Source of the DNA: Eledone cirrhosa
Lineage: Eukaryota
NCBI GenBank assembly: GCA_964016885.1
Contig: OZ024745.1
Span: forward strand, 33,542,001-33,606,000
DNA: 64,000 nt
Reading direction: 5' to 3'
Part shown: positions 2,962-63,900 of the stretch, one piece after another
Layout of the letters: every line of letters starts with the position of its first letter
How positions within the stretch are numbered: the first letter of the stretch is position 1
Made by a program: the position numbers and the translations under genes
Notes under the pieces: generated by a model
Told to the model about the DNA's origin: nothing
The model's database searches: none
The model's input: the letters and a program-made list of their open reading frames with translations, nothing else

Positions 2962-3392
2962 TGATGGGTGCATTTAACTAGGAATTATATATTAAACCAG
3001 CCTCTGATGGGTGCATTTAACTAGGAATTATATATTAAACCAGCCTCTGATGGGTGCATTTAACTAGGAATTATATATTAAACCAGCCTCTGATGGGTGC
3101 ATTTAACTAGGAATTATATTATTAAACCAGCCTCTGGTGGGTGCATTTAACTAGGAATTATATATTAAACCAGCCTCTGATGGGTGCATTTAACTAGGAA
3201 TTATATATTAAACCAGCCTCTGATGGGTGCATTTAACTAGGAATTATATTATTAAACCAGCCTCTGATGGGTGCATTTAACTAGGAATTATATTATTAAA
3301 CCAGCCTCTGATGGGTGCATTTAACTAGGAATTATATATTAAACCAGTCTCTGATGGGTGCATTTAACTAGGAATTATATATTAAACCAGTC
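2962..3392. repeat. minisatellite, about 10 near-identical 43-44 bp units
   Basis: unit tgatgggtgcatttaactaggaattatatattaaaccagcctc, starting inside a decayed SINE/RTE-UTR segment. Confidence 0.95.
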
Positions 3393-16888: not shown

Positions 16889-16927
16889 CTCATTTTCTTT
16901 CTTATGATTTGCCTTCAAATTCACAAT
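16889..16927 (-). CDS. CCDC171: CCDC171-like 39-nt micro-exon (IVNLKANHKKENE), phase 0-0
   Basis: ttttttaataaag|ATT acceptor, GAG|gtaggt donor; fills the 13-aa gap before EKLEYLH. Confidence 0.75.
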
Positions 16928-23054: not shown

Positions 23055-24553
23055 GTATTCTCCGAGTTATGTGTGCCTCATTCTCCGAGTTATGTGTGCC
23101 TCATTCTCCCAGTTATGTGTGTCACATTCTCCCAGATATTAGCTCCATTCTCGAGTTATGTGTGCCTCATTCTCCCAGTTATGTGTGCCTCATTCTCCCA
23201 GTTATGTGTGTCACATTCTCCCAGATATTAGCTCCATTCTCCAGTTATGTGCCTCATTCTGCCAGATATGAGCCTCATTCTTCCAGATATTAGCTCCATT
23301 CTCCAGTTATGTGCCTCATTCTCCCAGATATGAGCCCCATTCTTCTAGATATGAGCCTCATTTTCCAGATATGAGCCTCATTCTCCCAGATATGAGCCTC
23401 ATTCTTCTAGATATGAGCCTCATTTTCCAGATATGAGCCTCATTCTCCCAGATATGGGCCTCATTCTTCCAGATATTAGCTCCATTCTCCAGTTATGTGC
23501 CTCATTCTCCCAGATATGAGCCTCATTCTTCTAGATATGAGCCTCATTTTCCAAGATATGAGCCTCATTCTTCTAGATATGAGCCTCATTTTCCAGATAT
23601 GAGCCTCATTCTCCCAGATATGAGCCTCATTATTCCAGATATTAGCTCCATTCTCCAGTTATGTGCCTAATTCTTCCAGATATGAGCCTCATTCTCCCAG
23701 ATATGAGCCTCATTCTTCTAGATATGAGCCTCATTTTCCAGATATGAGCCTCATTCTCCCAGATATGGGCCTCATTCTTCCAGATATTAGCTCCATTCTC
23801 CAGTTATGTGCCTCATTCTCCCAGATATGAGCCTCATTCTTCTAGATATGAGCCTCATTTTCCAGATATGAGCCTCATTCTCCCAGATATGGGCCTCATT
23901 CTTCCAGATATTAGCTCCATTCTCCAGTTATGTGCCTCATTCTCCCAGATATGAGCCTCATTCTTCTAGATATGAGCCTCATTCTTCTAGATATGAGCCT
24001 CATTCTTCTAGATATGAGCCTCATTCTCCCAGATATGAGCCTCATTCTTCCAGATATTAGCTCCATTCTCCAGTTATGTGCCTAATTCTTCCAGATATGA
24101 GCCTCATTCTTCTAGATATGAGCCTCATTCTTCTAGATATGAGCCTCATTTTCCAGATATGAGCCTCATTCTCCCAGATATGGGCCTCATTCTTCCAGAT
24201 ATTAGCTCCATTCTCCAGTTATGTGCCTCATTCTCCCAGATATGAGCTTCATTCTTCTAGATATGAGCCTCATTTTCCAGATATGAGCCTCATTCTCCCA
24301 GTTATGTGCTTCACTCACCCAGTCATGTACTTCATTTCCCCAGTCATCTGTACCTCATTCTCCTAGTCATGTGTAACTCATTCTCCTAGTCATGTGTAAC
24401 TCATTCTCCCAGTCATGTACTTCATTCTCCCAGTCATGTGCCCCATTCTCCCAGTCATGTGCCCCATTCTCCCAGTCATGTGCCCCATTCTCCCTGTCAT
24501 GTACCTCATTCTCCCAGTTATGTGCCACATACTCCCAGTTACGTGCCACATAG
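23055..24553. repeat. 1.5-kb minisatellite of 19-23 bp units with variant blocks
   Basis: core cagatatgagcctcattctcc with interspersed variants gatattagctccattctcca, gttatgtgcc, gtcatgtgcccc. Confidence 0.95.
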
Positions 24554-25869: not shown

Positions 25870-28800
25870 ATAATAAAATAATAATAATGAAATTATTGTG
25901 TAAAGTGCTCAGGTGCACTACAGCTCGTCAAAGTTGCATGTATAGTACATAGAATAATATACAAATGTCAGGGAAGTGAATAGTGTATGAGTCATGATAT
26001 ACATGTGTGCGTGTGTACGGAGGGGGAATATTAGGTGTAGTGTTGGCAAATCTCAGGAAGCATGGAAGTTTTAAAGGATGCAGTGTCTTGACAGCTAATA
26101 ACTGATGCAGGTAGTTTGTCCCATGCTTCAGCAACTCTGTGCATGAAAAAATGTTTCCGAAAGTCATGGGGGCTGTGCTGTTTTCTGACTTTGTGGGCAT
26201 GCCCACGTGTGTTAGACATATGGAAATCAAAAAGGTACTCAGGGTTGTTGTTGGCAAGATGGTTAATAATTTTGTGGGTGTTTACAAAGTCAGTTGCCAG
26301 ACGTCGGAGCTTCAATGTATCCATGCCCAGGGAAACAAGGCATTCAGAGTATGCTAGATGCCTGATGGAGGGTATTCGCTTGGTTGCACGTCTCTGAACA
26401 GTTTCTAGACGGTCAATGTTCTGAGCAAGATAGGGGTTCAAGACTGGTGATGCAAATTCTAAGTGTGGCCGCACCATAGCTGTATACAGCCTTAAATAGA
26501 TATCTGGAGAGCGGCTGACAAAGGTCTTGCTGAGTGATGCTAAGACACCCTTGGCCTTCTGTACAATTTTAGAGACGTGCTTCGTCCAACACAAATCGCT
26601 GCTGACCGTAATGCCAAGGCCAGGTCACGTTCACAAGAAGACTTCTTGATATCAGTGTTGTGGAGGGAGTACGTGGACGCTGGGTTTTTACTCCCCAAAA
26701 TGCATGGTGGTACACTTGTCCACAGCCAACTTGAGTTGCCAGTCCGTGATCCATTGTTGCATTGTGCCCAGGTCAGATTGCAGGCAAGATCTATAGTGTT
26801 CAGGATCTGCCCTTTTTAACTCAAGGTACAGCTTGATGTCATCTGCCTATTTCAGTACTGTGGCATTCTTTAAGTTGGCATCTATGTCATTAATATATGC
26901 CACAAACAAAAGGGGGCCAAGAACAGATTCCTGTGGTACACCAGATGACATCTTATATGGTGAAGAATGCTGGCCTAGAACTGTGATTACCTCTCTTCGA
27001 CTGAGAATGAAGGACTTCAACCAGTTAAAAAGATCATCCTTCACACCCATTGCAGAGAGTTTTGCCATAAGTCTTTTATGTAGCACAGAATTGAAAGCTT
27101 TAACAAAGTCAAGGTAAACAATCCATGAGCTGCCATCAGTGATCCGGGTGATGTCTTCAAGAAACTCAATAAGTTGATCACAGCAGCTGGAGTTAGGGAT
27201 AAATCCAAATTCAGAGGGCCGGATAAGACTGTGAGAGTTTCAGATATTCCAAAGCATTTCTCTGACACAGGATTCCATCAGTTTGGCAATGCAGCTAGTA
27301 AGACTGACTGGACGATAGTTCACAGGTGATGTGCAGTCACCCTTTTTGAACAGAGGAATGACACTGGCAGTTTTCCACTGTTCTGGAGTAGCACCATTGT
27401 TCAGACAGAATTGGAAGAAGCGTGATAGCTGGTGCAGAAGGAAGTACCCACCACATTTAAGAAGCAGGTACGTAACACCATCAAGACCAGGAGAGGCATG
27501 GTTGCGTTTATTTTTAAGGTGACGTCGCAGCATTGCAGGTGTAAATTCTATAATTGTAATAGAATCCGATGTCAGAGGTGGTGGAGTCGGGACACTCTGG
27601 TCTTCAACAGTGAAAATGCCTGAATAGCATTCAGCAATGAGTTCTGCGCATTCTTTGGGGTCGTCAGTAACCTGGTTTGTGTGGGGATTGCGAAGAGGAC
27701 CAACTGGAGAGTGAGGCCTCTGCTTTGAGTGAACATACTTCCAGAACACCTTACTGTCAGGGTTGGTTGCTATGCGCTGGTCAAATTCAAGCACTGCTTT
27801 TTTGTCACCTGTTTGAGATGGTTGGATGATTTATTTCGCTTCTTCCTATTGATGTCTAATTTATGTAGTTTGTACTCACGTTCAACATTACGACGGTCTT
27901 TTCTGGCAAGACGGACTGCTGCAGTCTCCTAAATTGCACTTTTGAGATGTTTTTCTGCTGACGTGGCACCGATGATGCTCATGCTGTCCATATTGAGCTC
28001 AGGATGTTCTGGAGTACTGTGTTGACATCTCCAGAGTCATAATCCTCAAGCCAGTTTGGATGTTGCAGCTCTGTGCAGTAACAGTTCCAGTCTGCTTTAT
28101 TTCAGTCAAAGGGAGCAGTTTGGAGATGGTTGTGGTTTTTGTTACTGCCCTTGAGGGATAGATTGGCAATGATCATAGCATGATCAGTGTCACCTAAAGG
28201 TTCCTCAGTAGTAACACTAATAACCGTTTCAGGAGTAGTAGTGAAGAGTAGATCCAAAGTGTAGTCACCTCTTGTTGGGGAGGTGACTACTTGGGACCAG
28301 TTCGAGTCCAGCACTAGCTCAAGGAAATCATTTGTATTTTGCGGCCAACGAAAGGTTTCCCAGTCAATCTCAGGGTGATTGAAGTCCCCTGCAATAAAAA
28401 CATAAGTGGCTGTTTTCCTGGCAGCAACTCTGAGGATATCACAAAGTTGAGTGTCCTGATGGTAATTTGGGGAATGGTAAACGACTCCAAGTAGCAGTGT
28501 TGACATGGTTATACGTATATCGCAGAAAAATACTTCCTGCTGCGATTGGTTCAAATCAACACAATTGCTGAAAAATTTGACTGAACGTAGACCATTACAC
28601 CACCACGACAATTAATGCGGTCTTTACGAAACAAGTTGTAGCCAGTTATGCTTAAAACCCCATCACAGAGTAAGGAATGTGCCCATGTTTCCATGACTGT
28701 AATGAAGTCAGGGTTGATACTTTTGACGTAGGAGTTAAAAAGATGAATCTTATTGCATAGACTAGGTGCATTCAAGGACAATAATTTGTACCTTGATTCC

Positions 28801-30000
28801 AGTCTATGATTATGTGCATGGGATGGCAGATTGTTCTGATTTAGTTTCCCAGAGTTTTTTCAGTTTTTTTATTGTCAGTTGTTGTGGGTACAGTGTTTTC
28901 AGACCAGCTGGTATCTCTTTTCCATGTTTCACCAGCCTTAATAAACTTCCATATCTGCCCATCATCACATAGGCCGAAGCTTTCATGTTCTGCCGAGCTG
29001 CGGTTTAAGGAAGCTGCAGCACGCAACTTTGGGCGGACATTTAGGTGGAAGACAAGGGCGTGTTCGGAAAGCAATCCGACTTTCACGCCTAGCTTTATCA
29101 GAGGCTACAAGGTATGAATGTGCCTCAGTTGAGTTCGAGAAAGACAGCTAATTAGCCTGGGTTTCAAACCTGGTCGGCCAAGGCATAGAGCACCCTTCAG
29201 GCGAGCTCAGCCCAAGTCTTTGGATGAACTGGCAGCAAATGTCTGAAGATCAACTATGTCTTCTGGTACACCAATGGCAATCACTTCGTGGTTTACAGAT
29301 TCAGTGGCATTCTCAATGCGTCTAGATTCGGCAAGAGGTACGCGGAGATTTTTTAACAAGTCACTCTGGTAAGATCCCTCATTGTGAGGCTCTACACGAA
29401 CGCTTGATTTTATTCCCGCTATTTCTTGGGTTAAAGCGGAAATCATTTGCCGTATTTCCTCAAACTCTGTATTGACGGTCGATTTTTGTGTTCTTCTTCT
29501 TCAACAGGAATGGTAGGGAAAGACACAGTTGTCGGTTGTTGTTGTTGAAAAGTAACGGGGAAGGAAGACATGGGTTGCTGTTGTTGATGAAGTCCTTCAA
29601 CAGGGGTAGTAGCAGAAGCTACAGTCATTGGTTTTTTGGTTTTTGCTGTTGTTCAGGAACAATGGTAGAGGAAGACACGATCTTCGGTTTTTGTTGTTGT
29701 TGTTCAACAGCAATGGTAGAGGCAGACACACAAGCTAGGCACTGAAAGGACCAATTTGGTAGCTGGACAATTTCACAGAGCCCATCCATCATAGAAGTAT
29801 GGTGTCTCTTTTTCTGACCCGGGATCTTTTGAAAGTTTGTGGCACATTGAAGGCAAACAGAAACACGACATTTGTCACATTCGACCCATCGATTTCGGAA
29901 GGAGTTTTCTGGTTCTATACATAAACGACAGACGTGATTTTCTGGGCAATGTTCTATTTTGGAACATCACCCAGTTCTATCACACACTTCATCCATGGAT
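25870..30000 (-). mobile_element. near full-length decayed CR1-clade LINE (PHD-type ORF1, APE endonuclease, RT)
   Basis: ORF1 from ATG 29996 with CRLC..WVECDKC..CLQC..CLAC; APE motifs ETW, GDFNHP, LDLLF, TDH (28102-28781); RT NYRPVSLTS, SGVPQESVLGPLLF (26830-27794); VRPHLEFA C-terminus; (ATT)n tail; many stops and frameshifts. Confidence 0.9.
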
Positions 30001-30799: not shown

Positions 30800-31700
30800 T
30801 ATGGAGAAAAGAACTTGAAAATGCAACTGGAGTTTTTTAAGAATATTTATTTACTTTACTTTACCGGTTTCACAGTTATCAAAAGTAAAATTGAGATGGA
30901 GGGTTTGTGTTTCTGCTGTGGTGTATCTTGCATCTAACTGGAGTACGAAAATTCTTTCTGTTTTATACAAAAAAATGGAGTGTTATGGTTCAGTGAGTAT
31001 GGCTAAAGTTAAAGTGCTGAGGAATGTCAGAATTTCTATTGTAGTAGACTTGCAAACAATTTAATGTACAAGAATTGGTTTATATGTTTGTATTCCATGA
31101 TGATGATGATGGTGATGGTAGTGTAGTAAGAATATGGGTTTGTGTATCTGTTTTGCATACTAAATTGCATTTGTGTGTAAGTGTGGGAGTAGTTTTTGGA
31201 AAACAAAAATATTGTGTTTGGCGCAAAAATTACTGTACCTAATTAAGTGACTGTCATCAACCAACAAAATTGCATTTTAAATAAATAGCAATCTGAGCCA
31301 CTTTTTTTGTATAAAACAGAAAGATATTTTGAGCTCCTGTTAGATGTGATACACCATAACAGAAACACAAACCCTCCATCTCAATTTTACTTTTGATAAT
31401 CATAAGAACTGTGAAACTGGTAAAGTAAATAGATATTCTTAACCCTTTAACATTTACATTATTCCATATATATTATTGTATTTTCATGGTAAAAGCTTTA
31501 CCTCACATAATTATCTCACATCATATCGAATCTATGAGATTTTGATGTTATTTATTTTGAGAACAGTACTTTAACATCAGTATGAGTGGCCAGTTATGGC
31601 CGGTTTGAACAGAAAGAGATGAGAGAATTCTAGCCGGATATGGCCAGTTTAAATGCTAAAGGGTTAAAAGACTCCAGTTGCATTTTCAATTCTTTTCTTT
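30800..31700. mobile_element. foldback element with ~170-bp inverted arms, probably Penelope-derived
   Basis: 30808-30978 is the reverse complement of 31299-31442 plus 31668-31700; each arm carries a degenerate hammerhead-like motif; (TA)n runs lie near both ends. Confidence 0.7.
31443..31663. mobile_element. piggyBac-type MITE nested in the foldback arm
   Basis: TTAA TSD, cccttta/taaaggg ends; the opposite arm has an uninterrupted TTAA. Confidence 0.85.
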
Positions 31701-31786
31701 ATATATATATATATATATAATCCTCATCATCATCATCATCCTCATCATCGTTTAATGTCCATCTTCCACACTAGCATGGGTTAGAC

Positions 31787-31985
31787 CAGGCATGTCAAAC
31801 ATGGGGCCCGTTGGCCACATGCGGCCCTTTAAAAGCACACCTGCAGCCCGCACAAATGATTTTGCAGCGCGAACATGTTTTATCTTCATAATATAAAATA
31901 AAAAACTAGTTGCAATGAGTGCAATTAGTTGTATGTGGCCCTCAGACAACACATGTGACCATGTGGCCCTCGGTTGACATGCCTG
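31787..31985. mobile_element. hAT MITE (duplicate at 32719-32967)
   Basis: TIR caggcatgtcaa / ttgacatgcctg; 8-bp TSD ggttagac / ggttagat. Confidence 0.85.
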
Positions 31986-32423
31986 GGTTAGATGCTATAC
32001 ATACACGCACATATTATATATATATATATTCAGACACTACACATACACACATATTATATATATATATACACTTTCAGTGTGGATTGGGAGCTTTTTGTCA
32101 TGGAACATAATGTAAAATAATAATAATAATGATGATTAAAGCTCAGTTCAACAAAGAATGGAAACAAAATAATTATTTCTACTTTTGGCACAAGGCCAGC
32201 AATTACTCAGAGCATTACTGGTACTTTATTTTATCGACCCCGTAAGGATGAACGGCAAAGTTAACCTCGGCAGGATTTGAACTTAGAATGGCAAGGTCGA
32301 CTCTCTACCGATACTGCCAATCCACCGGCAATAACAAAATAATGTTATGCTAGCAGAGCAATATTTTCCTTATTTCAGTGATGAAGTCTGTGATAATTTA
32401 TTAAAAAAAAAATATTACTTTAC

Positions 32424-32585
32424 CTCTTTATTTAATCGTTCAATTATCGCTTTGTCACTTTCTTTGATAGAAGTAGCAGAATCTACTTCAAACTGTAGAC
32501 GCACCGTTTGTTCTTCGAGTTGTTTATACCTTATTCTTAGTTGATTTAATTCTTTAACACAATGTGTGTAGTTAGTTTGTTTTTC
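32424..32585 (-). CDS. CCDC171: CCDC171-like duplicated exon, copy A (EKQTNYTHCVKELNQL...IERLNKE), phase 0-0
   Basis: ttttgccag|GAA acceptor, GAG|gtaaag donor, 162 nt open. Confidence 0.85.
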
Positions 32586-33005
32586 CTGGCAAAAATACAA
32601 ACAAAAAGGGACAAAAGTGTTATATCACTACATTTTCCAGATTATTTATTGAAAAAGTTTAAAGCTTTCTACACTATCATCGTTTAATGTCCATCTTCCA
32701 CACTAGCATGGGTTAGACCAGGCATGTCAAACATGGGGCCCGTGGGCCACATGCGGCCCTTTACAAGCACACCTGCAGCCCGCACAAAGGAATTTGCAAT
32801 GCGAACATGTTTTATCTTCATAATATAAAATAAAAAAACTAGTTGCAATGAGTGCAATTAGTTGTCATGTGTGGCCCTCAGGCAACACATATGTGACCCA
32901 TGTGGCCCTCAGGCAACACATATGTGATCCATGTGGCCCTCGGGGGACCATCAGGTTGGCATGCCTGGGTTAGATGCTATACATACACACACACATATTA
33001 TATAT

Positions 33006-33936
33006 GGAAATAGCAGTTGGAATCAAGAGGACTGAGAGTGAATCTAGCTAAGACAAAAGTGTTGGTAAGTAGAAAAGAGGACAAAACTCTGATTCCATCA
33101 AGGAAACGGCCATGTTCGATATATAGGAAAGGAACTGGCATAAATTCCATAAAATGTACGCAATGCAGATCTTGGGTACATAAGAGATGTAGTGGGATAG
33201 CAGGCAAACTAACAGGTAGGGAAAACTACGTATGCATTAGATGTACAGGGAAATTAGACAGTAGAAGTCACATTGATAGACACATTTCTCAGATGCAGGT
33301 GTGTTCTATAGAGGTGGTTGATAGCTTCTGGTACCTAGGTGATCAGATTAGCATGGGTGGGGGTTGTTCTGAGGCCATAGTATCTAGAATAAGGACGAGT
33401 TGGAAGCAGTTTAGGGAGCTGCTTCCTCTGTTGAAAAAGAAGGGTTTCTCCCTGCATACGAAAGGCCGGTTATATGATGCCTGTGTGAGATGCACGATGC
33501 TGCATGGTAGTGAGACATGGGCAGCAACTGCGGAGGATATGGGATGGTTGGAGAGAAATGAAGCAAACATGGTCCGTTGGATGTACAATGTCAATGTGTG
33601 TGAACGACCAACCATAGATGAGTTGAGTGAGAAACTGTGTATAAGAGGATAAGTTGTAGTGTGCGGGAGAGAAGGCTGATATGGTATGGACATGTGATGC
33701 GCATGGAGGATGACCGCTGGGTGAAGAAGTGCCAAGAAATCCCAGTAGAAGGAAGACGCAGTAGAGGAAGACCACGAAAAACATGGGCGGAGGTGGTGAG
33801 AGCAGACCTCAGATCGCTGAAGCTCATGGAGGAGATGACGAAGGACCGTGACAAGTGGAGAGATGCTGTGCTGAATAGGACACGTCCAACCCTTGCAAGC
33901 AGGGAGAAGCGGACATAAAATGATGATGATGATGAT
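33006..33936 (+). mobile_element. 5'-truncated RTE LINE family B inserted in (TA)n of duplication copy B
   Basis: GLRVNLAKTKVL, Cys/His finger, MLHGSETW, RLIWYGHVMRM, GRPRKTW, (GAT)n tail; absent from copy A. Confidence 0.9.
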
Positions 33937-33953
33937 TCAGACACTATACATAA

Positions 33954-34013
<60 letters not shown>

Positions 34014-34197
34014 TTTCAGTGTGGATTGGCCGCTTTTTGTTGTGGCACACAATGTAAAATAATAATGATAATGACGATTAAAACTCAGTTCAACAAAGAA
34101 TGGAAACAAAATAATGTTATGCTAGCAGAGCAATATTTTCCTTATTTCAATGACAAAGTCTGTGATAATTAAAAAAAAAAAAAAAATATTACTTTAC

Positions 34198-34359
34198 CTC
34201 TTTATTTAATCGTTCAACTTTGTTATTCACCCTTTCTTTGTTAGAAGTACGAGATCCTGCTTTAAACTTTAGACACACTGTTTGTTCTTCAAGTAGTTTA
34301 TACCTTAATCTCAGTTGATTTAATTCTTTAGCACAGTATGTGTAGTTAGTTTGTGTTTC
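34198..34359 (-). CDS. CCDC171: CCDC171-like duplicated exon, copy B (ETQTNYTYCAKELNQL...VERLNKE), phase 0-0
   Basis: ttttgtcag|GAA acceptor, GAG|gtaaag donor, 162 nt open, no indels; inclusion in mRNA unproven. Confidence 0.65.
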
Positions 34360-35380
34360 CTGACAAAAATACAAACAAAAAGGGACAAAAGTGTTATATT
34401 ACTACATTTCCTAGATTATTTATTGAAAAAGTTTAAAGCTTTCTACACTATTAATATTAACCTTTGTGTTTTCTGTTGAATAGCATTTCCATTAGTTCAA
34501 TCTTATATTGTTCTTATTCTATAAATACTTATCTATGCAGAAACAGTACAGGATTGAATGTGTATGTAACCAGTCACCTACATAATGTAAACAGACATCT
34601 ATCTAAATTAAAACTTTCCAATGTACATAAGATTCTTCTGATAAGTTGTTACTTTGCTAGCAAAGAAAATGGGACATTAAATGATAATGATGATAATGAT
34701 GATGATGTTACAAATACCCTCTTAATAATTATTTTTACAAGCACAAGGCAAGCTTTATTTTATCAACCCTGTAATAATGGAACAATTCTAGTAAATACCA
34801 TCAAATTATTCATTAATTAATTGAAATATGATGTATTTCATTAGAAATATAGTCATACAAGTGAAGGCATGTGGCCTAGTGGCAAGGGTGTTGGACTTGC
34901 AATCATGTCTTTGGTTTGATTCCTCAAGAGTCCTCTCCACCCTTTTTAGGCATGGTTTCTACAGTGGAGTGCCCTTCTTGTGGCCAACCACCTTACAGGG
35001 TGTACCAGGTGCATTTTCATGGCATCAATGCTAGAGAGGTTGTTGGTCCTTGTTTCAATGAAAATGCCCTCTCGACTCTGTGGAGGGATGGATGGGGTTG
35101 ATAGAAGGGAGATAAGTATGAAGTTGTGGCAAGTGTGGTGTGATTAGACAGTGATGAAGTTGTCGTAGTTTAATGGAACAAGTTTCGATGAACAAGTTTA
35201 ATGGAAATATTCTTGTGGTGTGTGGGCTTACAATGTATTAGAAGTTGTCTGTAAATCCACAATATGGGCACAATCTATTTCAAATGGTCTTTAAATAGGG
35301 GAAAAAAAAATTATCAATCTGTTTCAAAAAGAAGGAGAGGAAGAACAAATTGAAGAAAGAAAATATATGAGAATAGTTAC

Positions 35381-35470
35381 TTCAATCATCTTGTCTTTTG
35401 TATTCAGCAACTCTTTCAAAATATTAGTTTCATTTGTTAATTTATTTGCTAGAGATTTATGCTTGATGTT
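35381..35470 (-). CDS. CCDC171: CCDC171-like exon (NIKHKSLANKL...DKMIE), phase 0-0
   Basis: ttctttatag|AAC acceptor, GAA|gtaact donor, 90 nt open coiled-coil. Confidence 0.75.
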
Positions 35471-35964
35471 CTATAAAGAATAAAAAGAATAGAAACATAT
35501 ACAAGACATTTTCAGAATCTTACTATCCAGATATTTCAATACTGCAATTATCAATATGCCTAGTATATAACACTTTTTGTTTTAAAGAGAGAATAATTAA
35601 AGAGAATTAAAACGATTGTTGGCAAAGTTGTTAGAGTATTGCATATTTATCCTGCATTCTGAGTTCAAACCCCACCGAGCTCTATTTTGACTTTCATCAT
35701 TTCAAGGTTGATAAAGAAAGTACAAGCCCAATGCTGGTTTAGCCCTTTATTTTTCCAGCTATATCCTTGATGTTCTGCTGGATCAAAGGATAGAAGATCT
35801 GTGTCTACTTCAACTGCATGGGCATCAAAGGTCTTTAATGAAAACATGGAAAGATGGTATATACTACCAAGTCATACTCAATTGTGAGTGATGGCTTTGG
35901 TAGTTTGGAATATATATATACATGCTCATGCCTGTTATCTCACTACATCTCTTGTGTACCCAAG

Positions 35965-45821: not shown

Positions 45822-46930
45822 CGCAACCACCTCTCCAGCACGCAACATTTGATTCCTCTTATGCTCTGCCTGTCTCTCAATTCATTTATGCTTTGCCGTT
45901 CGCGTATATTACTATTACACATCCATCGGAGCATGCAGGCTTTGTTACTTTCTAATCTACGCAAGTCTTCCACAGACAGCGCCCAGGTCTCACTACCATG
46001 TAACATTGCTGTTCGTATACACACATCATACAGTCTGCCTTTCATTTTGAGGGAGAAGCCTTTTGCAGCTAGCAGTGGCAGTAGCTCCCTGAACTTCTTC
46101 CATCCCGTTCTTACCCTAGTTATTGTACTTTCCGAACACCCACCTCCGCTGCTAATTCGGTCACCTAGGTAGCAGAAGCTGTCTACTGTTTCTACAGAGC
46201 CCTCCCAGAGTTTGGTGGTACTTGTTTCCTGCTTGCTGTCCCAGCACAGCTGCTACATGTGAAGCCTAGATCCTTAGTTAAGCTTCCTGAGATCCCGCTA
46301 CATCTCCTGTGTACCCATTGTTTGCATTTGAGGCAGAGAATGCACTTCCTACCTACACCTTTCCTACATACTGAGCAAGGCCATTTCCCTGAGGGGATCT
46401 GGATTCTGTTTTCTCGTCTACTTACAAGGATCTTAGTCTTTGTCAGGTTGACCCTGAGACCCTTTCTCTCTAGTCCCTGCTTCCAAGTTTGGAATTTTTT
46501 CTCTAGTTCTACCATAGATTCAGCTATAAATGCGAGGTCATCTGCATACAGGAGTTCCCATGGGCATCCGGTCTTAAACTCCTCTGTTATTGCCTGCAGA
46601 ACTATGATGAACAGGAGAGGGCTAAGAACAGAGCCCTGGTGGACACCGACCTGTACGCTAAATTCCTTGCTAAAGTCATTGCTAATCCTAACTTTGCTGA
46701 CTGCTCCTCTATACATGGCTTGTATAGCTTTCACAAGCCATTCATCTACTCCTAGTTTTCTAAGAGCCCACCAGATTATAGCACGGGGAACTCTGTCAAA
46801 GGCTTTCTCGAGATCGACGAATGCCAGGTAGAGTGGCTTACTTTTAGCTAGGTACTTTTTCTGTAACTGCCTCACAAGGAAGAGGGCATCCGTTGTGCCT
46901 CTTCCTGGCACAAACCCAAATTGCATCTCA
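45822..46930 (-). mobile_element. RTE LINE family A internal fragment (RT core plus Cys/His finger)
   Basis: QFGFVPGRGTTDA, DLEKAFDRV, GVHQGSVLSP, YADD; frameshift near 46200; both ends truncated. Confidence 0.92.
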
Positions 46931-55301: not shown

Positions 55302-55658
55302 TGACCTCTGGCGTCACGCAGTAATACAGAGTACCCGACCTCCCATGGGTACAAGCTGAAGCATATAGACAATATGCCCCCACACACCCCACCGCAAGGT
55401 GGTCGTGGAGGTGCCACGGCAAAAAAGCACCCAGCCCACACTGTAAAGTGGACGTGTAGGCACCACGAAAAAGCACCCAGCACTCACTGTAAATGAGGTT
55501 GGTGTTAGGAAGGCCATCCAGCTGTAGAAATCAAGCCAAATCAGTTCCTGTATGAGTAAGGCATGGTCAGCCGACCAGACACTGCCCACAACAGGACAAC
55601 CCGTCTAACTCATGCGAGCGTGGAAGAACGGACGTAAAACGGTGATGATGATGATGAT
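55302..55658 (+). mobile_element. RTE family A 3' end
   Basis: reverse complement of ~57951-58310 including the end of the ORF and the whole UTR. Confidence 0.85.
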
Positions 55659-56479
55659 ATATTTCAGGGGCCGTCAGTCTAAACGAACGGATGTAGACTG
55701 CCCCCTGAATCAAATATCTCCATTTTTATTTTTTGTCTCCGTGTACCCAGCTTGTATTACCATGATTCTTTTACGATTGTTATGCAATGGAATTGATGAT
55801 GTCGCTGGAATTCTACTGGCCATTGAAATATATATAGTGTCTGCAGAAATAAATACTTTCAAGGAATCTTAACTTTCCGGCCTCCTGTCACTTTATTCAA
55901 TATATGTGTACATATACATACTTCATAAATAACAATCAAAGAGTGTTTAAAACATTTAATCAATTATGATCGTTTCATCCAAGCACAAGGCTAGAATCAT
56001 CGGAGTATATAATAAAGGTTGAAACACAAATATAATATCAGAAGTTTGTCATAAGAACATTAGGAGGATGCATAATATAGGAACCCAAGATACAAACACA
56101 CACACATATATATATATATATATGTATGATGGCTGCCCCCTCGTTATCGAGTATGGCCATTGCACAAAAAACAACAACATAATAACGACAAAAATAATAA
56201 TAACAATAATAATAATAAAAATAATAAAAAAAAATATATACACACACACACAATAACAATTAACGGTGCTGCGATCGAATGTGGCTTTTTAGCCCAGCCA
56301 ATGATCTAAAATGTCTGCCTTGCACAGAGTTGTCAACCAAAACATTTACTGGGAATAGCCGGCTGTGGTTGGAGTTCATGTACTTTTGCATGTCGTTTAA
56401 GCCCTCCTGCTTGGCAGGCATGATGAGTGTAGCATCTTAACAGCAGCCTGGTAGTCAACCACTGGTCTCATTTTATGAC

Positions 56480-57438: not shown

Positions 57439-57458
57439 TATATATATATATATATATA

Positions 57459-57889
57459 TCATCATCATCACCGTTTTACGTCCGTTCTTCCACGCTAGCA
57501 TGAGTTAGACGGGTTGTCCTGTTGTGGGCAGTGTCTGGTCGGCTGACCATGAATTGCTCATACAGGAACTGATTTTGGCTTGATTTCTACAGCTGGATGC
57601 CCTTCCTAACACCAACCTCATTTACAGTGAGTGCTGGGTGCTTTTTCGTGGCGCCTACACGTCCACTTTACAGTGTGGGCTGGGTGCTTTTTTGCCGTGG
57701 CACCTCCACGACCACCTTGCGGTGGGAGGGTGTGGGGGCATATTGTCTATATGCTTCAGCTTGTACCCATGGGAGGTTGGGTACTCTGTATTACTGCGTG
57801 ACGCCAGAGGTCACGGTCGTGTGTCATCGCCTTTGAGAGGTGTAATTGGGTAAGGTTGGCTTTTATCACCTCATCCCAGCTCATCTTGG
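57459..57889 (-). mobile_element. RTE family A 3' fragment
   Basis: near-identical to 57951-58387; (TA)n on both sides. Confidence 0.9.
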
Positions 57890-57914: not shown

Positions 57915-57950
<36 letters not shown>

Positions 57951-57953
<3 letters not shown>

Positions 57954-60292
57954 TCATCATCATCATCATCACCGTTTTACGTCCGTTCTTCCACGCTAGC
58001 ATGGGTTAGACGGGTTGTCCTGTTGTGGGCAGTGTCTGGTCGGCTGACCATGCCTTGCTCATACAGGAACTGATCTGGCTTGATTTCTACAGCTGGATGC
58101 CCTTCCTAACACCAACCTCATTTACAGTGAGTGCTGGGTGCTTTTTCGTGGCGCCTACACGTCCACTTTACAGTGTGGGCTGGGTGCTTTTTTGCCGTGG
58201 CACCTCCACGACCACCTTGCGGTGGGGGGGGGGGGCATATTGTTTATATGCTTCAGCATGTACCCATGGGAGGTCGGGTACCCTGTATTACTGCGTGACG
58301 CCAGAAGTCACGGTCGTGTGTCATTGACTTTGAGAGGTGTAGTTGGGTAAGGTCGGCTTTTATCACCTCATCCCAAGTCATCTTGGGTCTCCCCACTCCG
58401 CGGTTTCCATCAACTTCTAGTGCTCTGCACCTTTTTATGCAGCTGTCATCCTTCATACGCATCACATGTCCATACCAGCGTAACCGCCTCTCCTGCACGC
58501 AGCATTTGATTCCTCTTATGCTCAGTCTCTCTCTCAATTCATTTATGCTTTGTCGTTCACGTATATTACTGTTACACATCCATCGGAGCATGCAGGCTTC
58601 GTTTCTCTCTAATCTACGTAAGTCTTCCACCTTCAGCGCCCAGGTCTCACTACCATGCAACATCGCTGTTCGGATACACGCATCATACAGTCTGCCTTTC
58701 ATTCTGAGGGAGAAGCCTTTTGCAGCTAGCAGTGGTAGTAGTTCCCTAAACTTCTTCCATCCCGTTCTTACCCTAGTTATTGTACTTTCTGAGCACCCAC
58801 CTCCGTTGCTAATTCGGTCACCTAGGTAGCAGAAGCTGTCTACTGTTTCTACAGGGCCCTCCCAGAGATTGGTGGTACTTGTTTCCTGTGGCTGTTTGCT
58901 TGCTGTTTCAGCACAGCTGCTGCATGTGAATCCTACATTCTTAATTAAGCTTCCTGAGATCCCGCTACATCTCTTGTGTACCCATTGTTTGCATTTGGGG
59001 CAAAGAATGGAGTTCCTACCTACACCTTTCCTACATACTGAGCAAGGCCATTTCCCTGAGGGGATCTGGGTTCTGTTTTCTCGTCTACTTATAAGGACCT
59101 TAGTCTTTGTCATGTTGACTTTGAGGCCCTTTCTCTCTAGTCCCTGCTTCCAGGTTTGGAATTTATTCTCTAGTTCTACCATAGATTCAGCTATGAGTGC
59201 GAGGTCATCAGCATACAGGAGTTCCCATGGGCATCCGGTCTTAAACTCCTCCGTTATTGCCTGCAGGACTATGATGAACAGGAGAGGGCTAAGAACAGAG
59301 CCCTGGTGGACCCCAACCTGTACGCTAAATTCCTCGCTATACTCATTGCCAATCCTAACTTTGCTGACTGCTCCCCTATACATGGCTTGTACCGCTTTCA
59401 CAAGCCATTCATCTACTCCTAGTTTTCTAAGAGCCCACCAGATTACTGCACGTGGAACTCTGTCAAAGGCTTTCTCAAGGTCGACAAATGCCAAGTAGAG
59501 TGGCTTACTTTTAGCTAGGTACTTTTCCTGTAATTGCCTCACAAGGAAGAGCGCATCAGTGGTGCCTTTCCCTGGAACAAACCCAAATTGCATCTCGTCT
59601 ATATTCACCCGGTCCCTAATCAGCTGTGCTATAACTCTTTCTGTTACTTTCATGACCTGGTCCATCAACTTTATACCTCTATAGTTTCCTCTATCTAGTG
59701 CATCGCCTTTACCTTTGTAGCAGTTGACAATGATGCTACTGCACCAATCTTTTGGTATGGCCCCCTCTAGTATTACCTGGTTAACGATACGTGTGGTTAT
59801 AGTGTGACCTACAGACCCAGATGCCTTCAGCATCTCGGCAGCTATACCCGATGGACCGGTTGCCTTCCCTATCTTCATATCTCTGATTGCCTTACTTACT
59901 ACGCTGCCGCTGACTTGTACTGCTGGTCCCTCTATAGGGTCTACGTGGGGTAGGGTCTCTTCTTCCCATGCATTCTCCTCATTTAGTAATCTATCATAAT
60001 GACTCTTCCATGCATCTTTCTTCTCAGCACTTGTGAGGGCAAGCTCACCTTTATCATTCCGGATACACTTCTCTCCAATGACATCACAACTATCTCTGAC
60101 ACACTGCCTCGCAATCTTGAATACCTCCTGTTTCTGGTCCTCACGTTGTAAAACATGCTTGAATTTTCTATCCTCTGCTTCCCTCCTAGCTAAGTATACT
60201 TGTCGCCTAGCTTCCCTCTTGGTCTCTATGTAATGTACCCTGCTCCCCCCGTTCTTCCATTCTTTCCATGCCTGTCTCTTGGCCTTGACTGC

Positions 60293-60296
<4 letters not shown>
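57951..60296 (-). mobile_element. 5'-truncated RTE LINE family A with uninterrupted RT and PHD-like finger
   Basis: open frame 58253-60296 (about 680 aa): NYRGIKL, QFGF, DLEKAFD, QGSVLSP, YADD, CSVC..CPKC..H..C..CSSC; no endonuclease domain; (TA)n on both sides. Confidence 0.95.
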
Positions 60297-60334
<38 letters not shown>

Positions 60335-60345
60335 TATATATATAT

Positions 60346-60786
60346 TTCGTTTCTGAATTTGTTTAGCAAGATTCTTTATCTGAAAACGTGTGTTGAAACC
60401 GATATTGTTATACTTTGGGAGGGTCATGTTGCCAATAAGGAACACACGCACCAGTTGCTTTCACTTCAATTTATTATAATAAATTTATAAATTTCCGGTT
60501 GGTTGGTTGGTTCCACAACCAGATGGTTGTTTATATATTGTCAAAGTTCTTTCGTCACACATTCTGTGACCTCTTCAGTGACTGGGGATTCTTTTCTTTG
60601 TTTTTTGTGCCTCTCCTTTGTTCTGTCCTATGCCATCTTATTTTTGTGTGTGTGTTGTCATATAAACAACCATCTGGTTGTGGAACCAACCAGCCAACCG
60701 GAAATTTATAAATTTATTATAATAAATTGAAGTGAAAGCAACTGGTGCGCGTGTTTCTTATTGGCAACATGACCCTCCCAAAGTAT

Positions 60787-60994: not shown

Positions 60995-63900
60995 AACTTT
61001 GATAGGTTTCGGCCAGTATTGGCACAGGCCATGTCTAACTTAATAGCACCACCTGGCAAAGTCTTACAAATCAGTGTTTGGGCACCATGGCCCACTTGAG
61101 CAGAGAGTTATTGTTTACGGAGGCATATCCGGGTGTAGGAGGCTTATCCGGGATTTCTTGAAGGAATTTATCCAAAGACTTCTTAAACTTGATAGGGTCT
61201 GTCTCTGCTTTGATGGAGTTTTGGTGTAATGTTAAAGAGTGCAGGGCCAATTGAGGTAAAATAATTGTGCCGTATTGTTGTTATGTGATGCGAGTGTGAT
61301 TTTTGTCGTGGGCGGATAGCACGTGGACCAAGCCTTGGGTGTACACTAAAGGTGATGCAACATCATTTGGGCTAAGTTGACGGAATATTTTCCACATCAT
61401 ACAGATAATGAAGCGCTCATGGCGACGTTGAAGAGAATAAAGTTTGAGCTTTTCTAATCGACCCCAATAGTCAAGGCCTGTCATGCCAATTATCTTTTTT
61501 GTAATTGACCTTTGGGGTGCTTCAACTTTCATGATACTTTGTTTCGTGTGGAGTGACCACAGTAGACAATAGTATTCAAGGTGGGGTCGGGCAAAAGTGG
61601 AGAAGAGAAGGACAACAGTGTGGATATCTCTCGACTGGAAAGTTCTGAGAATCCAGGAACACATTCTGCGGGCCATATCAACTTTGCTGTTTATATGAGT
61701 GGCCCAGCTTATATTGTTGTCCACAATTACTCCCAGGTCTCTGATGTTATTGGAAGCCACTAGAGTTTCACCCGAAGGAAGAGAGTATGGTAGTTTCAGG
61801 GCATCCTTTTTTCCAAAGTGGATTAGTTCAAACTTATCCTCATTCAACAGCATATTATTCATCTCTGCCCATTGGATAACAGCCAGTAGGTCTGACTGAA
61901 GGCAAGTCCAGTCACCCACCTCATTGATGACCCTTTGGAGCTTGGAATCATCTGCGAAGATTCTGATGTTGCTGTGTTTGATGATGTCAGTAATATCATT
62001 AATGTAGATGATGAAAAGAAGTGGGCTCACACAGTGCCTTGTGGGACGCCACTGCTGACTTTGGCAGGGCTGGGTTCTGCCTGTCAGGAAACATTTGATC
62101 CACTGTAGTAACCTTCCAGAGACACCAATATTGGATAGGTTTTTCAGTAGAATCTTATGATCAACCCTGTCGAAGGCCTTGCTGAAATCAAGGTAGATGA
62201 CATCATTGTTGGAGCCCTCTCCCAAGGCTCTCAAAACACCGTCAAAGTGATGCAGGAGCTGCGTTAGGCAGTCCCCTCCATTACGGAACCCATGTTGGTT
62301 GGAGTTCAGCAGGCTGTTGCTTTCAAGAAAGTGGGTTATTCGTGATCTCACCACCCTCTCAAATACCTTGATAATATGAGAGGTGAGTGAGATCGGATGG
62401 TAGTTCACTGCAAGGGACTTATTTCCCTTTTTGAAGACTGGGATAGAAAGTTTTCAGGAATATAGCCAGTGTCCAGTGAGTTCCTCCACAGATTAGCAAG
62501 AGGAGTTGCAAGTTGGTGTCGACACACCTTCAGGACACAAGCAGGGAACCTGTCGGGGCCTACTGCTGAATTGTGTTTAATTTTGTTTATTGCCGCTAAG
62601 ACATCAGGGGCGCCAAATGTTATGTCTGATATAGGGCGTTGGGTGTTAATATCACTGATACGGCCCAGATCGGCCATATCAGGGTTGCTGAAAACAGAGC
62701 AGTATTGTTTCTGCAGTATCTCGCCCATGGTTTTGGCATTGTCTTGGAGTGTGCCATTTTCATCAACTAGGGGGCCAACAGTGGAGACGGTGACCTTGTG
62801 TTTTTTAGCGAATGAGAAGAACACTTTGGGGTTGAGTTTGATTTTCTCAATGGCCCACCTCTCTTCAGCTATTCTCTGGTTATTGATGATGGTCATAATG
62901 CATTGCTGGAGGTTATTTTTTTTTTACTCAAGCAGGGTGATAGCCATTGAATGTGTGTTGCTGTTGGCAGTATTTTAGTGTGTTAATTTTTTTGTTTGTT
63001 CTTTTTATTTTTCTGATAATTGTTTTTCTGTTTTGGGGGATACTGCACTTGGTTTTGTTCACAGGTTTTGGTGGGGTGTGTTTTGTACATATATTTGTGA
63101 CAGTGTCTACAAAGATCTGCCAAGATGTTTTGATGTTGGTAGAAGTGTGCGCGTGTGTAAAAAACCAGTCGACATGTGATAGTTCGTTCATAATTGCATC
63201 CCAGTTGGCATTGTAGAGATCCATGTTATCAAATGGGTGGGCTGGAGAGAGGACCCTGGGATTAGCATTCGGCTGGTGGAATCTCAGGTTACAAAGAACC
63301 ATGTCATGGTCTGAGAGAAGGGTTTTTTCCACTGTAATATTATGTATAGTGTTAGTGTGGTTACTAAACACTAGATCCAGAATGTTCTTCTGATGCCTCA
63401 TTGGTACAAGGACAAGTTGGGACAAGAAAAACTCATTCATGAAGTCAAGAAGTGACTTGACAGCCTCTTTGTCAGTGGTTGAGGCTGTGGAGCCTGGTTT
63501 CAAAATACATGTAGACCAATCGAAAAAAGTATGTTGCTAGAATGGCACTGTTTAATAAAGCATTTAATACTGTTGAGGCATTCTTTGAAACCGATTATGG
63601 GTGTTTGTGGCGGCCTATAGAGCCCAACTAATGTCAGGTCATTGGCTTTATTGTGCAGTGACTGATTCACAGTATCCATTAGAGAATGTTGTGTTGCCAT
63701 CTGCCGTAAAGGAATCATGCAGGAAAATGGCAGTTCCACCCTTCCTTCTGCCAACATGATCCGCACGGATGGTTGTAAAATTTCTCACTCTTACTTCGGC
63801 CTCCAAGTGGGAGTTGTCAAGGTGGGTCTCAGTAAGAATGAAGAAGGGGATGTGAAATGGATTGTTACCAACCCAATCCTCAATGAATTGGATCTTCCAT

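What the first reader, a model, noticed from the sequence alone, without database searches (positions are those of the whole stretch)
32424..34359. Tandemly duplicated CCDC171 exon diverging about three times faster than its own introns
Seen: two 162-nt phase 0-0 exons with intact splice sites, no stops and no indels. By hand they differ at 27/162 nt and 18/54 aa; only 3 codons differ purely synonymously, and 13 of the amino-acid changes fall in residues 29-48. Adjacent duplicated intron differs at only 4/91 and 3/58 nt. A neutrally decaying pseudo-exon should track the intron rate. Inference: positive selection after exon duplication, producing either mutually exclusive isoforms or a coiled coil 54 aa longer. 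The vertebrate protein, as recalled, has one copy.
Basis: partly seen in the sequence, partly recalled or inferred. Interest (0 to 1): 0.85.

Follow-up and report, generated by a model that had tools for sequence, protein, structure and literature searches.

The report
Octopus rod protein lengthened by exon
In an octopus-like genome one exon of the CCDC171 gene is duplicated and both copies lie one after the other in a spliced transcript contig, which would add 54 amino acids to a predicted rod whose length is otherwise nearly fixed across animals; the copies' fast divergence is likely drift more than positive selection.

Summary
Counts confirmed: two intact 162-nt phase 0-0 exons, 27/162 nt, 18/54 aa. 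The duplicate is a ~0.8-kb tandem unit; its introns differ at 29/528. A spliced contig from run X1 (RNA by behaviour) joins upstream exon, A and B in order with no mismatch: both copies are included together; no one-copy form was seen. The segment is 230 residues long in 6 of 8 aligned orthologues from molluscs to starfish, so +54 aa (~8 nm) is a real departure. Positive selection is not shown: dN/dS 1.11, synonymous sites as diverged as replacement sites; 9 of 27 differences fit a two-codon shift; transposon clocks put neutral divergence at about 8-11%, above the 5% of the flanks, which suggests partial gene conversion. Against the intron yardstick replacements stay in excess (p 0.003-0.008), so selection remains possible (~0.3). 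Eleven neighbouring single-copy exon segments are also fast against Octopus. No earlier scan note on this gene.

The parts
35381..35470 (-). Upstream CCDC171 exon (30 codons; O. sinensis residues 483-512)
   Evidence: tblastn; in X1 record 1, letters 187-279
34198..34359 (-). Exon copy A, 162 nt, phase 0-0; 26/54 identical to O. sinensis
   Evidence: X1 record 1, letters 280-438
32424..32585 (-). Exon copy B, 162 nt, phase 0-0; 30/54 identical to O. sinensis
   Evidence: X1 record 1, letters 439-602
34216..34233 (-). Codons 43-48 of copy A: 9 of the 27 differences, likely a two-codon shift (in-frame gain and loss of 6 nt); counterpart in B at 32442-32459
   Evidence: pair-HMM and gapped alignment; outgroup match 3/4 shifted vs 0/6 unshifted
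16889..16927 (-). Next downstream CCDC171 exon (13 codons); join from B inferred, outside the stretch laid
32677..34448 (-). Duplicated unit A (exon A with intron flanks, LINE insertion, MITE and tail)
   Evidence: alignment; breakpoints with a 2-nt shared AT
31744..32676 (-). Duplicated unit B (exon B with intron flanks, SINE insertion, MITE and tail), directly abutting unit A
33006..33936 (+). 5'-truncated LINE fragment, in unit A only (RTE-like label recalled, not tested); lower bound on duplication age if it inserted afterwards
32174..32332 (.). Short interspersed repeat in unit B only, with an 11-nt target-site duplication (32333-32343, 32163-32173) and a clean empty site in A
32719..32967 (.). 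MITE in unit A (terminal inverted repeats; hAT-like label recalled), present before the duplication
31787..31985 (.). MITE in unit B, sister of the one in A; MITE plus tail differ at only 10/254

Best explanation
A ~0.8-kb piece of this octopod's CCDC171 gene is duplicated head to tail, and both 162-nt exon copies lie one after the other in a spliced transcript contig, which would lengthen a predicted coiled-coil rod by 54 residues (~8 nm); the copies likely diverge at about the neutral rate because constraint on most of their residues was relaxed. SHOWN: the tandem unit and its breakpoints, intact splice sites, joint inclusion of A then B in one contig, a single copy and fixed local length in orthologues, dN/dS near 1. 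INFERRED: (a) the duplication arose by a 2-nt microhomology join; (b) a phase 0-0 exon with a 690-nt or longer intron between copies has nothing that forces a choice, so the spliceosome takes both; (c) frame, splice sites and the a/d core of the first four heptads stay under purifying selection, while surface and hinge residues (29-48) drift in both copies; (d) the apparent three-fold excess over introns is the sum of neutral-rate exon change (13/134 non-CpG sites outside codons 43-48), one local two-codon shift counted as nine substitutions, CpG transitions, and flanks held too similar by partial gene conversion (mainly the MITE segment); (e) the longer rod is tolerated because this exon is a module (skipped in Octopus gene models) ending in a likely hinge that absorbs the 5-residue heptad mismatch, in a part of the protein already evolving fast in this lineage. 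The protein is likely centrosomal, by analogy with human CCDC171.
For: Joint inclusion: X1 record 1 (1917 nt, depth 6.98, 0 other letters, 0 gaps) lies on 35472-35380, 34358-34200, 32587-32424 in record order; X1 has zero depth in 4 unique-intron bins of 30; its depth in the four exon bins equals that one record's share (my arithmetic from tables 2 and 8). dN/dS 1.11, Fisher p=1.0; 0.84 without codons 43-48. Shift. Non-CpG exon without codons 43-48 13/134 vs unique flanks 17/270, p=0.23; vs all intron 26/510, p=0.064. Transposon clock: LINE in A differs from the column majority of 29 copies at 37/838 non-CpG sites, terminal branch 0.048 in a star-like tree; MITE 9/167 and 9/173; the bracket predicts 10.6-14.9 non-CpG differences for the exon outside codons 43-48 (13 seen) but 41.7 or more for the introns (26 seen, p=0.006) and 20.4 for MITE plus tail (9 seen, p=0.004). 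Both copies changed: 6 A-derived, 4 B-derived, 8 unpolarised. Core a/d positions 6-30 changed 0/8 vs 7/20 non-core, p=0.075. A neutral pseudo-exon pair would carry a stop in 50-76% of simulations. Single-copy segments 197-512 and 580-635 show 50 vs 20 lineage-specific changes against O. sinensis, elsewhere 23 vs 39 (p=1e-4, boundaries chosen after seeing the data). Exon absent from O. sinensis X5 and an O. bimaculoides 1271-aa model. Neutral drift in length-conserved coiled coils has precedent (PMC8598163, passages).
Against: With the introns as yardstick (5.1% or 6.3%), replacements outside codons 43-48 still exceed neutral simulation (13.5 seen vs 5.6 or 6.8; p=0.003, 0.008); at 8.2% p=0.06, at 10.6% p=0.25; with all 54 codons ungapped p is 0.0095 or lower at every yardstick. 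The LINE clock assumes the LINE inserted after the duplication and that its nearest relatives were sampled (40 of 11538 candidates scored); counting only letters seen in at most one other copy gives a lower bound of 22.7 intron differences, which fits the 26 seen with no conversion. The SINE, certainly later than the duplication, gives a weaker bound (6/161; nearest copy 3/129). No identical run is longer than 68 nt, so there is no fresh conversion tract. Only about 35 synonymous sites: dN/dS near 1 has little power. The regional acceleration is not significant against Argonauta (35 vs 26, p=0.31). One RNA-like run of unknown tissue, contigs only.
Confidence: 0.5

Rival explanations
1. Positive selection drove amino-acid change in both copies after the duplication, either against a true 5-6% neutral background or as a selected 'peak of divergence' that resists gene conversion, tuning the new, longer rod.
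For: Exon vs intron p=2e-5, non-CpG p=0.0015; replacement excess survives removal of codons 43-48 at the intron yardstick, p=0.003-0.008; 18/54 aa vs 2/54 between O. sinensis and O. bimaculoides, p=1e-4; 7 of the 18 changes hit sites invariant in 4 outgroups; both copies expressed; divergent exon between similar introns is the opsin signature (PMC3924837, passages).
Against: pS 14-16% equals pN 12-17%; the excess is not significant at the transposon-clock yardstick once the shift is removed (p=0.06-0.25); clustered multi-nucleotide events are a known cause of false signals (bioRxiv 10.1101/165969, search listing only); relaxed constraint also explains 18 vs 2.
Confidence: 0.3
2. Plain neutral drift with a true 5-7% age, no conversion and no selection; the exon excess is one complex mutation, CpG transitions and sampling noise.
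For: Non-CpG exon without codons 43-48 vs unique flanks p=0.23; a 6/30 cluster also occurs in intron; private-letter LINE clock fits the flanks.
Against: All-site 18/144 vs 29/528 p=0.006; scan statistic for the densest 60 nt p=1e-4; tree-based LINE age 0.048 per lineage.
Confidence: 0.12
3. The copies are mutually exclusive or tissue-switched exons, and the tandem form is a minor product.
For: The ancestral exon is skipped in two Octopus gene models; contigs drop rare variants and only one RNA-like run was laid.
Against: The only X1 contig on either exon carries both; 1612-nt intron and phase 0-0 give no steric or frame barrier.
Confidence: 0.06
4. Assembly artefact: two haplotypes placed in tandem.
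For: X4 contig depth on exon A (7.5) is lower than on exon B (10.9); depth does not settle whether both haplotypes carry A.
Against: A and B are joined in one spliced contig with 0 mismatches; DNA contigs match both exons exactly; each unit has its own transposon insertion and a defined junction.
Confidence: 0.02

Closest known systems
Tandem exon duplication with joint inclusion (internal duplication), e.g. 4Ig vs 2Ig B7-H3 (PMC3172298, search listing only)
   Same: Symmetric exon duplicated in tandem, both copies in one transcript, protein lengthened by one module.
   Different: Here the module is 54 aa of predicted coiled coil, not a folded domain; 54 is not a multiple of 7; the event is young (flanks 5-7% apart).
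Tandem exon duplication-derived substitutions / mutually exclusive homologous exons (PMC8373072, abstract and outline)
   Same: Two homologous, equal-length, same-phase exons side by side.
   Different: Those replace each other and more than 90% are at least 425 My old; here both are included together in the only contig seen and the pair is recent.
Peak of divergence under gene conversion: red/green opsin exon 5, RNase1 (PMC3924837, passages)
   Same: Exon more diverged than flanking introns between nearby duplicates, synonymous sites included.
   Different: Those are whole-gene duplicates with known selected residues and cross-species proof of conversion; here conversion is inferred only from transposon clocks and no selected site is known.
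Length-conserved, sequence-divergent coiled coils: synaptonemal-complex SYP proteins (PMC8598163, passages); Sas-6, Bld10p, NuMA spacers (PMC5082667, passages)
   Same: Long coiled coil, fast neutral-looking sequence change, fixed length across distant animals (230 residues in 6 of 8).
   Different: Here the length rule is broken by +54 aa; no spacer function has been shown for CCDC171 (human protein only confirmed at centrosomes, PMC7618310, passages).
Accelerated exons between conserved introns in venom genes (PMC2474615, PMC3862624, search listings only)
   Same: Exon divergence above intron divergence.
   Different: Intracellular structural protein, single gene, dN/dS about 1, no known arms-race partner.

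Membership tests
CCDC171 orthologues | Sequence similarity and colinear exons along the named protein | tested here: met
   79% to O. sinensis on exon 8075-7551; colinear exons in the window and its flanks; names from sources
Tandem exon duplication | Two homologous adjacent exons from one head-to-tail duplication; single copy in outgroups | tested here: met
   one strong profile hit in each of 22 proteins hit, of 32 proteins over 800 aa searched; the 10 without a hit include the two exon-skipping models and the echinoderm, placozoan and salamander proteins
Tandem exon duplication | Both copies spliced (not pseudo-exons) | tested here: met
   X1 record 1; RNA nature of X1 inferred, library not on record
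Mutually exclusive homologous exons | One and only one copy per transcript | tested here: not met
   both copies in one contig, no one-copy contig laid, in 1 RNA-like run; other tissues untested
Positively selected duplicate | dN/dS significantly above 1 with synonymous control | tested here: not met
   1.11, p=1.0; 0.84 without codons 43-48; low power
Positively selected duplicate | Replacement rate above a neutral non-coding yardstick | tested here: inconclusive
   p=0.003-0.008 with introns, 0.06-0.25 with transposon clocks
Positively selected duplicate | Branch/site codon model or McDonald-Kreitman test | not testable with these tools
   no nucleotide orthologues held; RAD runs X5 and X6 have near-zero depth on the exons
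Peak of divergence under gene conversion | Flanks homogenised after duplication | tested here: inconclusive
   introns 26 vs 41.7 expected (p=0.006) under the full LINE clock, 26 vs 22.7 under the private-letter clock
Peak of divergence under gene conversion | Paralogous introns closer than orthologous introns of sister species | not testable with these tools
   G000 has no relatives held
Coiled-coil molecular spacer | Length conserved while sequence diverges | tested here: met
   230 residues in 6 of 8 aligned proteins, 227 in a crinoid, 182 in the placozoan model
Coiled-coil molecular spacer | Length change alters a measured distance or function | not testable with these tools
   needs cell work

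The most novel reading that the evidence does not exclude
An octopod lineage has adaptively lengthened, by about 8 nm, a centrosomal coiled-coil ruler whose local length has been fixed since the mollusc-echinoderm split, and positive selection has been reshaping both exon copies and the neighbouring rod, giving a natural length mutant of an unstudied centrosome or sperm-centriole protein.
Probability: 0.25. Interest if true: 0.7.

Novelty: new member of a known kind. Interest (0 to 1): 0.42.

Why it matters
It is a young, expressed exon duplication caught with datable transposons on both copies, so it shows how a misleading 'exon faster than intron' signal can be built from a codon shift, CpG decay and flank conversion. 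Independently of selection, it is a natural +54-residue variant in a rod segment that is 230 residues long from cuttlefish and snails to starfish; if CCDC171 is a centrosomal spacer, this lineage offers a direct test of whether its length matters. I found no paper on it: 'CCDC171' gave 106 papers, 30 listed, none on cephalopods or on its evolution by title; 'octopus' plus 'exon duplication' gave 7, 6 listed, none on this gene.

Tried and rejected
Protein search with exon A alone found nothing. Search for shorter octopod fragments of residues 470-640 gave 1 hit of 328 candidates, a single-exon reading frame: no close relative with or without the duplication, so changes could be polarised only with protein outgroups. 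The run finder listed no holder on record as RNA (no RNA holder listed); X1 was judged RNA from its spliced contig. RAD runs X5 and X6 do not cover the exons, so no polymorphism data. X4 depth could not tell whether both haplotypes carry copy A. Pfam gave no family above cut-off for 5 of 5 proteins. Considered and dropped: positional subfunctionalisation (A's 3' half and B's 5' half free): A fits, B does not. LINE older than the duplication and deleted from B: disfavoured, as B lacks it exactly and the 8-nt spacer beside it is absent from 29 of 29 other copies, but not excluded. A-to-I editing: the contig has 0 other letters. A 10-nt exon-intron complement seen by eye was judged chance level and was not folded. 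Rows dropped before counts: microsatellite and pre-MITE columns (6/39 and 7/32 differences) were left out of the intron count as poorly alignable; the L006 row (11 vs 1) ran into intron and was removed; exons 567-579 and 872-917 gave no row; the CpG class was defined as CpG in either copy, which is biased towards differences. No structure or complex was predicted.

Full report
OBSERVATION. Three codons differ only synonymously and 13 residue changes lie in 29-48. A DNA search of the own genome finds only these two copies, and a protein search finds one CCDC171 locus (stricter first look, so a floor). The gene name comes from source names of the hits: O. sinensis 79% and Argonauta 74% on the largest exon (members). 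The organism is thus octopod-like. P0005 is called cuttlefish because a member of its 90% cluster is named Sepia pharaonis.

ANATOMY. The duplicated unit is about 0.8 kb without later insertions: A 34448-32677 directly followed by B 32676-31744, with a shared AT at the breakpoints. A MITE and a repeat tail lie in both units. A 930-nt LINE fragment lies only in A; a 159-nt short repeat with an 11-nt target-site duplication lies only in B, with a clean empty site in A. Over 528 alignable intron columns the units differ at 29 (5.5%); outside the MITE at 19/274 (6.9%). Exon versus intron is significant (p=2e-5; 0.002), and the densest 60 nt exceeds shuffles (p=1e-4). Two poorly alignable microsatellite-like stretches (6/39, 7/32) were left out, which if anything lowers the intron figure.

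EXPRESSION. Four of seven listed runs hold all 15 sampled words of exon B; none is on record as RNA. I laid 4 of the 7 (X1, X4, X5, X6) on 31700-35600. X1 record 1 (1917 nt, depth 6.98, no other letters, no gaps) lies on the upstream exon (record 187-279), exon A (280-438) and exon B (439-602), in that order. X1 has zero depth in 4 of 30 bins, all unique intron, so it behaves as RNA. Table 8 shows only 16 pieces, but X1's depth in the four exon bins (4.95, 2.08, 6.39, 5.43) equals this record's share by my arithmetic, so no other X1 contig lies there. Both copies are therefore spliced together. The join to 16927 lies outside the stretch and is inferred. Contigs drop rare forms and the tissue is unknown. 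DNA contigs of X4 match both exons exactly; RAD runs do not cover them.

ORTHOLOGUES. A profile of the exon finds one strong hit in each of 22 of 32 long proteins; the non-hits include the O. sinensis X5 and O. bimaculoides 1271-aa models, which skip exactly this exon. The segment matching O. sinensis 460-690 is 230 residues in O. sinensis, Argonauta, cuttlefish, Pomacea, Elysia and Asterias, 227 in Antedon and 182 in the Trichoplax model (8 aligned). In the window the matches over 457-698 are ungapped exon by exon, so joint inclusion would give 284: +54 aa, about 8 nm at 0.148 nm per residue (rise recalled), 5 residues off a heptad multiple. Hydrophobic residues favour one register (a/d at 6, 9, 13, 16 and so on), which cannot run on from A into B. 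Human CCDC171 was confirmed at centrosomes (PMC7618310, passages). Coiled coils can conserve length while sequence diverges (PMC5082667, passages), and such divergence was neutral in nematode synaptonemal proteins (PMC8598163, passages).

IS THE EXON UNDER POSITIVE SELECTION? (1) Nei-Gojobori: pS 5.5/35.4, pN 21.5/126.6, dN/dS 1.11, p=1.0. Synonymous sites are as diverged as replacement sites, though few. (2) Codons 43-48 hold 9 differences. A pair-HMM gives the ungapped alignment probability 0.005 or less at 5.5% divergence, 0.0002-0.08 at 8% and 0.07-0.96 at 16.7%. A matches Octopus at 3/4 residues if shifted by two, 0/6 unshifted; Argonauta 2/4 vs 1/6; cuttlefish 1/4 vs 0/6. Without these codons pS is 14.1%, pN 12.0%, dN/dS 0.84. 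(3) Non-CpG: exon 20/150 vs intron 26/510, p=0.0015; without the cluster 13/134, p=0.064; vs unique flanks 17/270, p=0.23. (4) Transposon bracket. The MITE, older than the duplication, is 9/167 and 9/173 non-CpG from the majority of 28 copies; the LINE 37/838 from 29 copies; the SINE-like repeat 5/148. The LINE's terminal branch is 0.048 in a star-like tree. If the LINE inserted after the duplication (favoured), introns should differ at 41.7 or more non-CpG sites; 26 do (p=0.006), and the deficit is in MITE plus tail (9 vs 20.4, p=0.004), not in the unique flanks (17 vs 21.2, p=0.21). The exon outside the cluster (13) falls inside its bracket of 10.6-14.9. Against this, counting only private letters gives 22.7, which needs no conversion and leaves the exon in excess (p=0.006). 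(5) Neutral simulation with CpG and GC effects: replacements outside the cluster, 13.5 seen, p=0.003, 0.008, 0.06, 0.25 at yardsticks 5.1, 6.3, 8.2, 10.6%; with all codons ungapped p is 0.0095 or lower throughout. The verdict on selection therefore depends on the yardstick and on the alignment.

WHAT IS CLEAR. Constraint changed: 18/54 residues differ between the copies against 2/54 between O. sinensis and O. bimaculoides (p=1e-4; 12/48 vs 2/48 p=0.007), where the whole protein differs at 56/1325. Both copies changed (6 A-derived, 4 B-derived, 8 unpolarised). Core positions 6-30 are unchanged (0/8 vs 7/20, p=0.075). The neighbouring single-copy exons are also fast in this lineage: 50 vs 20 lineage-specific changes against O. 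sinensis in 197-512 plus 580-635, 23 vs 39 elsewhere (p=1e-4, post hoc boundaries); not significant against Argonauta (35 vs 26 in 197-512).

MECHANISM. Most likely (0.5): a microhomology tandem duplication of a symmetric, modular exon; both copies kept in frame and included; relaxed constraint outside the heptad core; the three-fold contrast inflated by one codon shift, CpG decay and partial conversion of the flanks. Main rival (0.3): positive selection, possibly as an opsin-type peak of divergence (PMC3924837, passages). Lesser rivals: drift plus noise (0.12), alternative use in other tissues (0.06), haplotype artefact (0.02).

COMPARISON AND NOVELTY. It works like an internal duplication that lengthens a protein, and fails the defining test of mutually exclusive exons in the one run seen (class described in PMC8373072, abstract and outline). 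It is a new member of a known kind. I found no paper on it and no earlier scan note on this genome or gene; the 8 notes shown concern other genes and were not used. No supplements were read; they could hold selection scans that list CCDC171. Labels RTE-like and hAT-like are recalled, not tested. Interest 0.42: the selection claim is unproven, but an expressed +54-residue break in a length-conserved rod is a solid and testable oddity.

Noticed in passing
window 50067-15943 (CCDC171 residues about 197-635): Eleven single-copy exon segments in the middle of the gene are accelerated in this lineage against O. sinensis (50 vs 20 changes), while both ends are not.
   Followed up: partly
P0002, P0015: O. 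sinensis and O. bimaculoides gene models skip exactly this 54-aa exon; the 1279-aa O. sinensis model P0001 and the Argonauta model lack the segment near residues 872-917.
   Followed up: partly
window 55302-55662, 57439-57889, 57933-58386: Three near-identical repeat blocks (94-97%), two in tandem and one inverted, in a CCDC171 intron.
   Followed up: no
window 58253-60460 (-): 735-codon open frame of a LINE reverse transcriptase, with a 92% copy at 45822-46929; family label recalled.
   Followed up: no
window 2962-3390 and 23057-24541: A 43-nt tandem repeat (9.9 copies, 98%) and a 1.5-kb 21-nt minisatellite in introns.
   Followed up: no
window 26031-29966 and 61281-63784: Broken frames of a second kind of LINE in the introns.
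   Followed up: no
window 34364-34675: X4 record 12 differs from the assembly at 3 of 312 letters, a likely second allele; X4 depth is 7.5 on exon A and 10.9 on exon B.
   Followed up: partly
window 31995-32070 and 32980-33005 / 33937-34010: A roughly 30-nt direct repeat with an 8-nt spacer marks the LINE's insertion site in both units.
   Followed up: partly
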